A stretch of DNA of 64,000 bases, taken from assembly GCF_055900595.2 (NCBI RefSeq), contig NZ_CM148325.1; one strand, given 5' to 3'. The position numbers were made by a program. Below, in pieces: positions 9,001-13,247 of the stretch. How positions within the stretch are numbered: the first letter of the stretch is position 1; the number at the start of each line of letters is the position of its first letter.

Positions 9001-12000
9001 CTGCGCTAATCGCAAACCAAACGTCGCTGGCTGGCTAATAAACAGACTTTATTTAATTACTCTATTTCACCCTTATTTATCCCTTTAATCTCCTTTTCCA
9101 AAATGCCTGACAGTTCGCAGAATGAGATTTCGATCATGCAGTTAGTGCGATCCTGAACTAAGGTTTTCTGATACTTGAATACCGTTTTGTTCGGTTTCGC
9201 CCAAGGAGAATGATTGATGAAAGCCACCGCCCCTCCTCGCCCGCAAAAAATAGCGTTAATTCCCGCCTGCGTTTTGTTGTGTTTCGCTGCGCTAGCGGTG
9301 CAGGCAGAAGAAACGCCAGTAACGCCACAGCCGCCTGATATTTTGTTAGGGCCGCTGTTTAACGATGTGCAAAACGCCAAACTTTTTCCGGACCAAAAGA
9401 CCTTTGCTGATGCCGTGCCGAACAGCGATCCGCTAATGATCCTTGCAGATTATCGAATGCAGCAAAACCAGAGCGGCTTTGATCTGCGCCATTTCGTTAA
9501 CGTCAATTTCACTCTGCCGAAAGAGGGAGAGAAATATGTTCCGCCAGAAGGGCAGTCGCTGCGCGAACATATTGACGGACTTTGGCCTGTATTAACGCGT
9601 TCTACCGAAAACACCGAAAAATGGGATTCTCTGTTACCGCTGCCGGAACCTTATGTCGTGCCGGGCGGACGTTTTCGCGAGGTATATTACTGGGACAGTT
9701 ACTTCACCATGTTAGGGCTTGCCGAAAGCGGCCACTGGGATAAAGTTGCGGATATGGTGGCCAATTTTGCTCATGAAATAGACACTTACAGGCATATTCC
9801 CAACGGCAGCCGCAGTTACTATTTAAGCCGCTCGCAACCGCCATTCTTTGCCCTGATGGTAGAATTACTGGCGCAGCATGAAGGCGATGCCGCGTTGAAG
9901 CAATACCTGCCGCAAATGCAAAAAGAATATGCTTACTGGATGGACGGTGTTGAAAACCTGCAAGCCGGACAACAGGAAAAACGCGTTGTAAAACTTCAGG
10001 ATGGTACCCTTCTCAACCGCTACTGGGACGATCGCGATACGCCACGGCCAGAGTCATGGGTGGAAGATATTGCCACTGCCAAAAGCAATCCGAATCGACC
10101 TGCCACTGAAATTTACCGCGACCTGCGCTCTGCCGCTGCGTCTGGCTGGGATTTCAGCTCGCGCTGGATGGACAATCCGCAGCAGTTAAATACCTTACGC
10201 ACCACCAGCATCGTACCGGTCGATCTGAATAGCCTGATGTTCAAAATGGAAAAAATCCTTGCCCGCGCCAGCAAAGCTGCCGGAGATAACGCGATGGCAA
10301 ACCAGTACGAAACGCTGGCGAATGCCCGTCAAAAAGGGATCGAAAAATATCTGTGGAACGATCAACAAGGCTGGTATGCCGATTACGACCTGAAAAGTCA
10401 TAAAGTGCGCAATCAGTTAACCGCTGCCGCCCTGTTCCCGCTGTACGTCAATGCGGCAGCGAAAGATCGCGCCAGCAAAATGGCGACGGCGACGAAAACA
10501 CATCTGCTGCAACCAGGCGGCCTGAACACCACGTCGGTGAAAAGTGGGCAACAATGGGATGCGCCAAACGGCTGGGCACCGTTGCAGTGGGTCGCGACAG
10601 AAGGATTACAAAACTACGGGCAAAAAGAGGTGGCGATGGACATTAGCTGGCACTTCCTGACCAATGTTCAGCACACCTATGACCGGGAGAAAAAGCTGGT
10701 GGAAAAATATGATGTCAGCACCACCGGAACAGGGGGCGGCGGTGGCGAATATCCATTACAGGATGGCTTTGGCTGGACCAATGGCGTGACGCTGAAAATG
10801 CTGGATTTGATCTGCCCGAAAGAGCAACCGTGTGACAATGTTCCGGCGACGCGTCCACTCAGTGAATCAACAACACAGCCGGTAAAACAAAATGAGGCGG
10901 AACCTACGCCTTAACTTTACTGTATATCGAGCAATGCCATTACGTGCATAAAATTGGCATTGCTCTTTCTTCATCACGAAATACCACTCTTTCTACAGTC
11001 TATGCCTTTATTTTCTTTTATTAGGGAAGATTTTAATTTTATTTTATCAACTTGTTAATCATTACACCTCTATTTATATTTTCCCCCACTCCCCATTCTC
11101 CCTGACAATTTTTTTGTGGAACAAAGTGTTATTTAAGAAACAAGCAAATCATTCTGTCTCTTTAGACAAATTTTGACATCAAACATGATCTTTTTCGCTA
11201 TATGTGTAAATATATTTTGGTTTTAATTATCAGGATATGACTTATGTCACTAACCAGACGGAGGTTTACACAGATTCTTGCGTCGACATTGTTCCTGCAT
11301 CATCTGCCGTCCTTTGCACAATCAGTCAAATTCTGGGCCTCACTGACGCTTCCCGAAGCCCAAAACATTACACGCATCGTCTGGGGGCAGTCGAAGTTTC
11401 CAAAGGGTATTCTTCGCTGCTTCAGGGGCCTAATCAAATGGGCGGAGCCATTAATATCCCCCCAGAAGCCAACGAAATCTCTGGAAGCAAGTCTGGGATA
11501 TCGCCAGGGATGGAGCCGTAGCCAGGACAATGCCTACGATATGCATGCTTCTCGCACAATATTGATGCCGATACCATTCAAAATCAGAACAGCGGCACGG
11601 TGGATTACAGCGGTCTGGATGCCGGTATTAAGGGGAAAATCAGCAATATACTGGATGTAGGATTGAGCTACGCCCTGATCCACGCTGACGCCAAACGCAA
11701 AGACATCGGCAAGATAACCGATCTGCCAACGCAGACAATGACCGCATGGATGACTCTCAAACCGTGGGAGCCGTTAAGCGTAACGCTGTCGGAAGAGGCG
11801 CGTTCCTCCAGCTACAGCAACAGTGACGGTTCACAAAAAGCCGCCGGTTTTGCGGTGACCCACATTCGAGCCGATTACACCTTAGGTCATGGCTTCAGCG
11901 TTAATGCGTCGGTCAATAACCTGTTTGATACCAAATATGCCTACAGTGAAGGGTTTATTGAAGAAGGTCGCAATTTCTGGGCAGGTGTCGAATATACGTT

Positions 12001-13247
12001 CTGATGTGAAAGCGGATAGCAACATCTGTATCGCTATCCGCCTTATGAAAATCTTATTCTCTTCGCAGGAGGCGGAAAACACCCAGCACCAGGATAGCGC
12101 CCACTACCGCCACCAGGAAGCTGTGCAAATTAAAACCGCTGATGGAGCCGCCAATGCCAAACATGGTCGCCAGCCAGCCGCCGACCACCGCACCGACTAT
12201 CCCAAGAATACAGGTCAGGAAAAATCCACCACCATCACGCCCCGGCATGATTAGCTTGGCGATAATACCGGCTATCAGGCCAAAAATAATCCAGGCAATA
12301 ATTCCCATGTTCAGGCCCTCGTTTCGATGAATCGGACGCAAGAAATGCTTACGTCAACGCTCTAAGTATAGGCAAGGGCGGGATCGATGCTGGGCGTTTG
12401 TCGGCTGATTTAAGAACAACATGTAAAAAATATTCACGCATTTGTATTAAGTTTTGTTAACTGTGACCGATAAACCAAAGACAGTTTGTCAGTCAGGAGT
12501 TTTTCCGCGTGAGTCATTACCATGAGCAGTTCCTGAAACAAAATCCGTTAGCCGTCCTGGGCGTGTTACGCGATTTGCACAAAGCCGCAATTCCTTTGCG
12601 TATCAGTTGGAATGGCGGGCAGCTGATCAGCAAAATACTGGCAATAACCCCGGATAAACTGGTGCTGGATTTCGGCAGCCAGGCCGAAGATAACAACGCT
12701 GTGTTAAAGGCGCAGCACATTACCATTACCGCCGAAACCCAGGGCGCGAAAGTCGAATTTACTGTTGAACAACTACAGCAGAGTGAATACTTGCAGCTTC
12801 CGGCATTTATTACCGTACCGCCTCCCACCTTGTGGTTTGTACAACGACGCCGATATTTCCGCATCTCCGCCCCACTCCATCCGCCTTATTTTTGCCAGAC
12901 CAAACTGGCGGATAACAGTACGTTACGTTTCCGCCTGTATGATTTGTCGTTAGGCGGCATGGGCGCATTACTGGAAACGGCAAAGCCTGCCGGATTGCAC
13001 GAAGGCATGCGCTTCGCTCAGATTGAAGTCAACATGGGGCAATGGGGTGTTTTTCACTTTGACGCCCAGTTAATCTCAATCAGCGAGCGCAAAGTGATTG
13101 ATGGCAAGAATGAAACCATCACCACTCCCCGTCTGAGCTTCCGTTTTCTTAACGTCAGCCCGACGGTGGAGCGGCAATTACAGCGGATTATTTTCTCTCT
13201 CGAGCGGGAAGCCCGGGAGAAAGCGGCCAAAGTGCGCGACTGATTTA

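What the first reader, a model, noticed from the sequence alone, without database searches (positions are those of the whole stretch)
11237..12004. Relic of a TonB-dependent receptor between treA and ymgE
One frame carries a plug-like motif and the terminal barrel strands ending in Phe, but spans only ~255 codons and is broken by an in-frame TAG at 11519..11521. A signal peptide with a twin-arginine-like start lies in a different frame at 11244. This points to gene decay by internal deletion, frameshift and nonsense mutation.
Basis: seen in the sequence. Interest (0 to 1): 0.3.

Follow-up and report, generated by a model that had tools for sequence, protein, structure and literature searches.

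The report
Deletion remnant of prrA iron-uptake cluster
This stretch is the dead remnant of a known six-gene E. coli nutrient-uptake cluster (prrA-modD-yc73-fepC), cut down to 761 bases by two large deletions and a 2-base slip, so it is an ordinary pseudogene.

Summary

Window 11244-12004 is what remains of a 6,427-nt operon: periplasmic binding protein, FecCD permease, ATPase, SAM methyltransferase, ModD and the TonB-dependent receptor PrrA. About 39% of complete E. coli genomes carry it intact between treA and ymgE.

Mapping against an intact copy shows three lesions:
- a 4,667-bp deletion at 11381|11382, which fuses binding-protein codons 1-46 to receptor codon 117;
- a 2-base shortening in a C tract at 11458-11463;
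- a 997-bp deletion at 11549|11550, which removes receptor codons 174-505.

6427 - 4667 - 997 - 2 = 761, so the lesions account for every base.

The signal peptide at 11244 belongs to the binding-protein gene, not to the receptor. The TAG at 11519 is not a nonsense mutation: the intact gene has the same bases, read in another frame.

Strain EC42405 carries only the 997-bp deletion, so the receptor broke first. Eight RefSeq genomes carry the same relic, annotated as two pseudogenes. The C tract varies among them, so the chimeric ORF is not conserved.

The K-12 ycgY segment is unrelated, but K-12 keeps the receptor's last 24 nt.

Verdict: already known, low interest.

The parts
10915..11243 (+). 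Retained treA-to-cluster intergenic region. It holds the 5' leader and putative promoter of the cluster and an AGGA Shine-Dalgarno at 11231-11234.
   Evidence: Colinear with the intact locus L004 1108-1437 at 92%, and with EC42405 at 98%. ATG here is ATA in Seattle 1946 and ATT in EC42405 and RMDEC465. Only weak Fur-box-like and sigma-70-like matches, not above background. No Rfam family.
11244..11381 (+). Remnant of the periplasmic substrate-binding protein gene (Peripla_BP_2 family): codons 1-46 of 340, including the signal peptide with T-R-R-R-F.
   Evidence: 100% identical in nt and aa to the intact gene, WP_000060136 in L004 1438-1575. PGAP annotates the same piece as a partial pseudogene in Z0117EC0005 and E200086.
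11381..11382 (.). Junction J1: a 4,667-bp deletion (L004 1576-6242). It removes the rest of the binding-protein gene, the FecCD permease, ATPase, SAM methyltransferase and ModD genes, and receptor codons 1-116. No microhomology at the junction.
   Evidence: blastn map and junction contexts. Absent from EC42405 and RMDEC465.
11382..11549 (+). Receptor (prrA) remnant A: from base 2 of codon 117 through codon 173 (end of the plug and start of the barrel). It is split into two frames by the C-tract slip.
   Evidence: Matches L004 6243-6412 at 93%, and EC42405 at 95% with 2 gaps. tblastn matches aa 114-142 in one frame and 142-174 in another.
11458..11463 (+). C6 tract, 2 bases shorter than the intact CACCACCC. 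This is the frameshift. The tract length varies among relic carriers.
   Evidence: Alignments A1 and A3. The tract is C6 in the window and Z0117EC0005 and C7 in E200086; five more genomes match over the same 169-nt span as E200086.
11519..11521 (+). The same bases occur in intact genes, where they lie out of frame (…AGC CGT AGC…).
   Evidence: Invariant columns in A1 across relic and intact alleles.
11549..11550 (.). Junction J2: a 997-bp deletion inside the receptor gene (L004 6413-7409, roughly codons 174-505), with 2-nt TC microhomology.
   Evidence: The identical junction is in EC42405, whose five upstream genes are intact. The junction is present in 9 of 5,426 genomes.
11550..12004 (+). 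Receptor (prrA) remnant B: from base 2 of codon 506 through codon 656 plus the stop. These are the last barrel strands and end in Y-T-F.
   Evidence: 98.9% nt identity to intact genes. tblastn E 2.9e-103. Pfam PF00593 positions 315-436 of 436, E 1.9e-9. PGAP annotates it as a partial TonB-dependent receptor pseudogene.
11244..11660 (+). Accidental chimeric ORF of 138 aa: the binding-protein signal peptide, then out-of-frame receptor sequence, then 31 in-frame receptor residues, then out-of-frame sequence again.
   Evidence: It is 92 aa with a different tail in E200086 because of the C7 tract, so it is not conserved.

Best explanation
Window 11244-12004 is a non-functional deletion remnant of the accessory prrA-modD-yc73-fepC cluster, called O-island 55 / S-loop 83 in O157:H7. 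The intact cluster is a six-gene operon: periplasmic binding protein, FecCD permease, ATPase, SAM methyltransferase, ModD and the TonB-dependent outer-membrane receptor PrrA. It is proposed, but as far as I could read never shown, to import an iron compound.

The decay happened in steps. First, a 997-bp illegitimate deletion (2-nt microhomology) removed roughly codons 174-505 of the receptor and shifted its frame. Next, in a sub-lineage, a 4,667-bp deletion removed everything from binding-protein codon 47 to receptor codon 116. Point substitutions then turned CACCACCC into a C run, which has since slipped to C7 or C6.

What remains is 12% of the operon: its leader region, a 46-codon gene start, and two receptor fragments. 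None of these can make a transporter component.

Shown here: homology, breakpoints, the order of the two large deletions, and the non-conservation of the leftover ORF. Inferred: that nothing useful is expressed, and that the second deletion followed because the other genes were useless without the receptor.
For: Intact six-gene cluster at the same site in Seattle 1946, Nissle 1917 and 2,139-2,141 of 5,426 genomes. Base-exact map of three colinear blocks and two junctions. The arithmetic closes: 6427-4667-997-2 = 761 = 11244..12004. Pfam finds Plug and barrel domains in the intact receptor, and only the barrel's end in the relic. EC42405 is an intermediate with the same J2 and five intact upstream genes; RMDEC465, 99.4% identical to the window over 11 kb, has the full cluster. 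The same relic is in 8 independent complete genomes, which rules out an assembly artefact, and PGAP annotates it there as two partial pseudogenes. The C tract varies (C6 or C7), so the chimeric ORF is 138 or 92 aa. The plug fragment carries more substitutions than its neighbours: 6 in 168 nt against 18 in 1,832 nt, Fisher p 0.012. The cluster's name and proposed role come from PMC1890555 (section 13, table) and PMC12928451 (Table 4, section 15).
Against: No expression data were available, so 'non-functional' is an inference. The leader, Shine-Dalgarno, start codon and signal peptide of the first gene are untouched (100% identity), so a junk secreted peptide could still be made. The 2.7-kb block around the relic is almost identical between the window and Z0117EC0005 (2 differences), while the flanks are mosaic at 92-96%. 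The allele may therefore have moved between lineages by recombination, which fits neutral hitch-hiking but also selection. With one intermediate genome and recombination in the region, the order of events is well supported but not proven.
Confidence: 0.93

Rival explanations
1. One reading: a single TonB-dependent receptor gene, with its own twin-arginine signal peptide at 11244, decayed in place by an internal deletion, a frameshift and a nonsense mutation at 11519.
For: Plug and barrel fragments and a signal peptide are all present within 770 nt. There is a real frameshift at the C tract.
Against: The signal peptide is codons 1-46 of a Peripla_BP_2 binding-protein gene that lies 4.4 kb upstream of the receptor in intact strains. 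The receptor's own N-terminus (MRLKKRYLCTVLSLAFTQQSVAAQE...) is absent. The TAG bases are unchanged from intact genes.
Confidence: 0.02
2. The remnant has gained a function. Either the 138-aa chimeric ORF (11244-11660), driven by the old operon promoter and exported by the retained signal peptide, or the 134-aa barrel fragment ORF (11600-12004), is a new small protein.
For: The promoter region, SD, ATG and signal peptide are 100% conserved. The relic block is nearly identical in the window and Z0117EC0005 despite mosaic flanks.
Against: The chimeric ORF is truncated to 92 aa with a different C-terminus in E200086 (C7 tract), and five more carriers match over the same 169-nt span. Most of its length is out-of-frame receptor sequence. 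The 134-aa ORF starts at a GTG with no recognisable SD in the sequence and has no signal peptide, so a barrel fragment could not reach the outer membrane. Neither ORF matches any Pfam family other than the barrel end.
Confidence: 0.03
3. The structure is as in the best explanation, but the loss was selected rather than neutral. PrrA, like other TonB-dependent receptors, could be an entry point for a phage or colicin, so the 997-bp deletion was favoured and the relic haplotype spread by recombination.
For: The receptor was hit first while the five other genes stayed intact. The relic haplotype block is shared between genomes whose flanks differ by 4-8%. The locus has lost the cluster at least twice: the ycgY replacement, which left 24 nt of prrA in K-12, and this relic. 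Use of TonB-dependent receptors by phages and colicins is established knowledge for FhuA, BtuB, CirA and FepA; it is not shown for PrrA.
Against: Only 9 of 5,426 genomes carry the deletion, while 39% keep the cluster intact, so there has been no sweep. No phage or colicin is known to me that uses PrrA. Nothing here tests selection.
Confidence: 0.1
4. The deletions are assembly or sequencing artefacts in the window.
For: None beyond the general possibility.
Against: The same J1 and J2 occur in 8 independent complete genomes from Korea, Mali and elsewhere, and J2 also occurs in a ninth genome.
Confidence: 0.005

Closest known systems
prrA-modD-yc73-fepC cluster of E. coli CFT073 = O-island 55 / S-loop 83 of O157:H7 (Z1961-Z1966, ECs1693-ECs1699) = GR 9 (ymgE..treA) of APEC BEN2908. 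Described by Guyer, Kao & Mobley 1998 and Ye & Xu 2001, as cited in PMC1890555 and PMC12928451.
   Same: Same chromosomal site, between ymgE and treA. The retained pieces are 93-100% identical in nucleotides to intact copies. Order and orientation are the same.
   Different: Only 761 of 6,427 nt survive. Four genes are missing entirely, the binding-protein gene keeps 46 of 340 codons, and the receptor keeps about 208 of 656 codons, split over two frames.
Partial pseudogenes NBY12_RS10175 / NBY12_RS10170 in E. coli Z0117EC0005 and ACU5VG_RS14485 / ACU5VG_RS14490 in E200086 (RefSeq/PGAP).
   Same: The same relic with the same two junctions. Z0117EC0005 differs at 1 of 761 positions.
   Different: E200086 has C7 instead of C6 in the slipped tract; five further genomes match over the same 169-nt span.
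EC42405 locus FZN31_RS13895 (a 'frameshifted' TonB-dependent receptor pseudogene with an otherwise intact cluster).
   Same: Identical 997-bp deletion junction J2.
   Different: It keeps the five upstream genes and receptor codons 1-173, and it has no C-tract change. It represents the earlier stage of decay.
K-12 ycgY region (b1196).
   Same: It occupies the same gap between treA and ymgE. K-12 keeps the last 24 nt of prrA (A-G-V-E-Y-T-F-stop) next to the ymgE flank.
   Different: The 622-bp ycgY segment has no detectable DNA or protein similarity to the cluster or to the relic. YcgY matches no Pfam or NCBIfam family. It is a replacement, not a decayed copy.
Characterised TonB-dependent receptors
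   Same: The intact PrrA has the Plug (PF07715) and barrel (PF00593) domains and a C-terminal Phe.
   Different: It reaches no NCBIfam equivalog cut-off: the siderophore subfamily scores 128 bits against 223.5, CirA 45 against 745, BtuB 68 against 836. The only PDB matches are plug-level, E about 1e-6. The substrate is therefore unknown, and the relic is not a decayed fhuE or cirA.

Membership tests
TonB-dependent receptor (functional member) | N-terminal signal peptide and TonB-box region | tested here: not met
   Receptor aa 1-116 lie inside the 4,667-bp deletion. The signal peptide at 11244 belongs to another gene.
TonB-dependent receptor (functional member) | Complete Plug domain (PF07715) | tested here: not met
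   In the intact protein the Plug spans aa 39-139. The relic keeps only aa 117-139 of it, and that fragment gives no Pfam hit.
TonB-dependent receptor (functional member) | Complete 22-strand beta-barrel (PF00593) | tested here: not met
   The relic matches only profile positions 315-436 of 436 (E 1.9e-9). Roughly aa 174-505 are deleted.
TonB-dependent receptor (functional member) | C-terminal strand ending in an aromatic residue (Phe) | tested here: met
   The sequence ends ...NFWAGVEYTF* at 12004.
TonB-dependent receptor (functional member) | One uninterrupted reading frame | tested here: not met
   The three pieces lie in two frames. They are separated by a 2-base slip and a 997-bp deletion.
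Descent from the prrA-modD-yc73-fepC cluster (homology, not function) | Colinear nucleotide identity to intact copies at the same chromosomal site (treA | cluster | ymgE) | tested here: met
   Identity is 100%, 93-95% and 98.9% for the three pieces. The flanks treA and ymgE are in the same order and orientation.
Descent from the prrA-modD-yc73-fepC cluster (homology, not function) | All six genes present | tested here: not met
   The permease, ATPase, methyltransferase and ModD genes are wholly absent: tblastn finds no hit better than E 0.5.
Peripla_BP_2 substrate-binding protein (PF01497) | Binding domain present | tested here: not met
   The domain spans aa 94-278 of the intact protein. Only aa 1-46 are retained.
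Twin-arginine (Tat) signal peptide | S/T-R-R-x-F-L-K motif followed by a hydrophobic core and A-x-A cleavage site | tested here: inconclusive
   T-R-R-R-F-T-Q followed by ILASTLFLHHLPSFAQ is visible. No Pfam family, TAT_signal included, matched at E <= 10.
Fur-regulated iron-uptake operon | Fur box in the promoter | tested here: inconclusive
   The best matches to the 19-bp consensus are 12-13 of 19. Matches of 12 or more of 19 occur 162 times in the 64-kb window.

The most novel reading that the evidence does not exclude
The most novel reading the evidence does not exclude is that the treA-ymgE site is a recurrent, selected 'receptor-loss' locus. PrrA would be a liability, for example as a phage or colicin entry port. 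The cluster would then have been eliminated independently at least twice: by the ycgY replacement in about 59% of genomes, which leaves a 24-nt prrA stub, and by the stepwise deletions seen here. The relic haplotype would be moving between lineages by recombination. An even longer shot is that the retained promoter and signal peptide now export a new 138-aa peptide.
Probability: 0.08. Interest if true: 0.35.

Novelty: already known. Interest (0 to 1): 0.1.

Why it matters
It matters little beyond correct annotation. Window 11244-12004 should be annotated as two adjacent pseudogene fragments, the binding-protein 5' end and prrA internal plus 3' pieces, and not as ORFs.

It is a tidy example of stepwise operon decay. 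The outer-membrane receptor broke first. The now useless inner-membrane transporter and enzymes were lost next, and homopolymer slippage followed. An intermediate genome is still available.

The prrA cluster is used as an ExPEC/EHEC-associated marker. Primers that sit in the retained 3' part of prrA would score relic strains as positive.

The 24-nt prrA stub in K-12 suggests that the common ycgY arrangement is itself derived from a cluster-bearing ancestor.

Tried and rejected
1. K-12 ycgY as a decayed copy: rejected. blastn and tblastn find nothing beyond the last 24 nt of prrA.
2. A Fur box in the retained promoter: only 12-13 of 19 matches, at background frequency. The sigma-70 scan was not above its shuffles.
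3. A riboswitch or sRNA in 10800-12600, for example a cobalamin riboswitch, given the BtuC-like permease: no Rfam match at E <= 1.
4. Tat signal by HMM: no Pfam family matched.
5. Naming the receptor's substrate: no NCBIfam equivalog is reached, and there are only plug-level PDB matches.
6. Literature searches on modD/TonB/treA, ycgY, Z196x tags and ModD plus methyltransferase gave nothing useful. The search 'ymgE treA iron' finally led to the cluster's name. The two primary papers (PMC108533, PMC88130) are not held.
7. A degenerate-pattern scan of species-representative genomes found only one outgroup, Citrobacter koseri, so the ancestral state is only partly addressed.
8. Loci L002 and L006 did not reach the script sandbox. 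L002 was refetched as L004, and L006 was read through DNA alignment and get_sequence.
9. Structure prediction and the large protein searches were not run. Nucleotide-level identity to intact genes made them unnecessary.
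Full report
**Location and observation.**
The finding lies between treA (9214-10914, +) and ymgE (12054-12341, -) in an E. coli-type neighbourhood: dhaM, treA, [finding], ymgE, ycgR, emtA, ldcA, cvrA.

The frame opening at 11237 reads a plug-like GAVEVSKGYSSLLQGPNQMGGAINI, has TAG at 11519-11521, and ends NFWAGVEYTF* at 12004. Another frame opens at 11244 with MSLTRRRFTQILASTLFLHHLPSFAQ.

**What occupies this site in other genomes.**
A megablast of 11000-12060 against 5,426 complete E. coli genomes showed three states of the locus.

In Seattle 1946, Nissle 1917 and many others, the treA-ymgE gap holds six genes on the + strand:
- an iron ABC transporter substrate-binding protein (340 aa, Peripla_BP_2);
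- a FecCD permease;
- an ATPase;
- a class I SAM methyltransferase;
- ModD (quinolinate-phosphoribosyltransferase-like, TIGR01334 at 504 bits);
- a 656-aa TonB-dependent receptor with Plug (aa 39-139) and barrel (aa 222-630) domains.

The 4.7-kb interior of this cluster is present in 2,139-2,141 genomes, about 39%. The unrelated K-12 ycgY segment is in 3,171-3,179 genomes, about 59%. Only 8 genomes carry the arrangement seen in the window.

**Base-exact anatomy.**
blastn against the intact locus L004 gives three colinear blocks:
- Window 10500-11381 = L004 693-1575. This is the treA 3' end, the intergenic leader, and codons 1-46 of the binding-protein gene.
- Window 11382-11551 = L004 6243-6414. 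This is the receptor from codon 117 to 174, with a 2-base gap.
- Window 11550-12400 = L004 7410-8260. This is the receptor from codon 506 to the stop, then ymgE.

Two junctions follow from this:
- J1 (11381|11382) is a 4,667-bp deletion with no microhomology.
- J2 (11549|11550) is a 997-bp deletion with a 2-nt TC overlap.

The bookkeeping closes exactly: 6,427 - 4,667 - 997 - 2 = 761 = 11244..12004.

tblastn of the six intact proteins confirms the map. Binding protein aa 1-46 match at 100% (E 1.6e-25). Receptor aa 114-142 and 142-174 match in two different frames (E 1.4e-26). Receptor aa 504-656 match with E 2.9e-103. The four middle genes give nothing.

Pfam places the last piece at positions 315-436 of 436 of the barrel model, above threshold.

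**Correcting the interpretation.**
The signal peptide at 11244 is the untouched start of the binding-protein gene. The receptor's own N-terminus (MRLKKRYLCTVLSLAFTQQSVAAQE...), its TonB-box region and most of its plug are deleted.

The TAG at 11519 is not a mutation. The bases GGATGGAGCCGTAGCCAG are invariant between relic and intact alleles, and in the intact gene they read G-W-S-R-S-Q.

The TAG appears in frame only because a 2-base shortening at 11458-11463 (intact CACCACCC, here CCCCCC) shifts the ancestral frame. The 997-bp (3n+1) deletion then restores the first frame for the barrel piece.

The ATG at 11237 is also an accident. That triplet is ATA in Seattle 1946 and ATT in EC42405 and RMDEC465, and it sits between the Shine-Dalgarno and the real start.

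The lesions are therefore two large deletions and one homopolymer slip. There is no nonsense mutation, and the object that decayed is an operon rather than one gene.

**Order of events.**
The window's closest relatives over 9000-20000 are RMDEC465 (99.4%) and EC42405 (99.3%).

RMDEC465 has the complete cluster with a full 1,971-bp receptor gene. EC42405 has the five upstream genes intact and a 974-bp 'frameshifted' receptor pseudogene. Its junction is identical to J2, and its CACCACCC is unaltered.

A 120-nt probe across J2 finds it in 9 genomes: EC42405 plus the eight full relics. The receptor deletion therefore came first. The 4,667-bp deletion and the C-tract changes came later in a sub-lineage.

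**Continuing decay and the leftover ORFs.**
Among relic carriers the C tract is C6 in the window and Z0117EC0005 and C7 in E200086; five more genomes match over the same 169-nt span as E200086.

As a result, the chimeric ORF that starts with the binding-protein signal peptide is 138 aa in the window but 92 aa, with a different tail, in E200086. It is not conserved.

The 134-aa GTG ORF (11600-12004) has no evident ribosome-binding site and no signal peptide.

Relative to EC42405, the plug fragment has 6 substitutions in 168 nt against 18 in 1,832 nt of neighbouring sequence (Fisher p 0.012). The best intact alleles are only 96.5% identical to it.

I found no RNA family, no convincing Fur box, and no promoter signal above shuffles.

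**Haplotype structure.**
The window and Z0117EC0005 differ at only 2 positions from 11244 to 13970. They are 92% identical in the treA-cluster intergenic region and 96% in ldcA. The relic thus sits in a shared block with mosaic flanks, which suggests recombination in this region. Whether that reflects selection cannot be told from these data.

**K-12 comparison.**
K-12 is colinear with the window up to the treA stop (10915) and again from 11981 onwards. Between those points it has an unrelated 622-bp ycgY segment.

The point where similarity resumes lies 24 nt inside the receptor gene: K-12 still has GCAGGTGTCGAGTATACGTTCTGA, which encodes A-G-V-E-Y-T-F-stop. The K-12 arrangement is therefore also derived from a cluster-bearing ancestor, by replacement.

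In line with this, the one outgroup hit from a degenerate-pattern scan, Citrobacter koseri NCTC10786, has a PrrA homologue (86% aa over residues 531-644) next to ymgE and ycgR, with one extra receptor gene in between.

**Comparison with what is known.**
The cluster is the prrA-modD-yc73-fepC cluster first described in CFT073. It is the same as S-loop 83 / O-island 55 of O157:H7 (ECs1693-1699, Z1961-Z1966) and GR 9 (ymgE..treA) of APEC BEN2908. It has been 'proposed to be involved in iron uptake' (PMC1890555 section 13 and table; PMC12928451 Table 4 and section 15). Those papers cite Guyer et al. 1998 and Ye & Xu 2001, which I could not read.

The receptor reaches no NCBIfam equivalog and has only plug-level matches in the PDB. 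Its substrate is open, and it is not a decayed fhuE or cirA.

RefSeq already annotates the same relic as two partial pseudogenes in Z0117EC0005 and E200086.

**Verdict.**
The feature is an ordinary, already annotated kind of pseudogene remnant of a known accessory cluster. Interest is low. The only mildly instructive points are the preserved intermediate, the polymorphic C tract, and the 24-nt stub in K-12.

Noticed in passing
L003 (K-12 MG1655) 2533-2556, equivalent to window 11981-12004: K-12 keeps the last 24 nt of prrA (A-G-V-E-Y-T-F-stop), directly abutting the unrelated 622-bp ycgY segment. The common ycgY arrangement (about 59% of genomes) therefore looks like a replacement in a cluster-bearing ancestor.
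   Followed up: partly
L008 (Citrobacter koseri NCTC10786, UAVY01000004.1) 1650-5686: A PrrA homologue (86% aa over residues 531-644) lies next to ymgE and ycgR, with an additional 671-aa TonB-dependent receptor ORF (3232-5247) between them. ycgR there matches in several frames, which could be assembly indels or a pseudogene.
   Followed up: partly
window 10969-11113: The treA-to-cluster intergenic region is a divergence hot spot. It is 92% identical with 10 gap positions against Z0117EC0005, although the adjacent 2.7 kb differ at only 2 positions. ldcA (13956-14870) is likewise only 96% identical. This is a mosaic pattern suggesting recombination.
   Followed up: partly
window 10942-10975: An inverted repeat (GCAATGCCA...TGGCATTGC) followed by CTTTCTT lies just after treA. 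It is probably the treA terminator, but the simple terminator scan did not list it.
   Followed up: no
window 16702-18967 (ORF 17388-18800, +): About 2.3 kb lie between cvrA and dadX and carry a 470-aa leucine-rich-repeat protein gene (Pfam LRR_4). In Seattle 1946, cvrA and dadX are only 122 bp apart. The insert is shared with EC42405 and RMDEC465.
   Followed up: partly
window 14965-16701: The cvrA ORF is 578 aa here. PGAP annotates cvrA as an incomplete pseudogene (missing C-terminus) in Z0117EC0005, Seattle 1946, EC42405 and RMDEC465. The reason was not checked.
   Followed up: no
window 35524-39807 (-): A 1,427-aa AIDA/pertactin-type autotransporter ORF appears intact. From memory, K-12 has only the ycgH pseudogene in this neighbourhood.
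   Followed up: no
window 161-179: This is the best Fur-box-like site in the whole window (16 of 19, GAAAATGATAACCAGTATC). It lies upstream of the 955-aa ORF at 640-3507.
   Followed up: no
window 50025-53812 (-): A TrkH-family ORF (491 aa) and a 458-aa ORF with no Pfam match lie next to icd (54190-55440). This may be accessory content.
   Followed up: no
L006 (RMDEC465) 218-4392: In the closest relative that has an intact prrA cluster, treA itself is split by an IS66-family element. Different genes at this locus are being inactivated in different close relatives.
   Followed up: no
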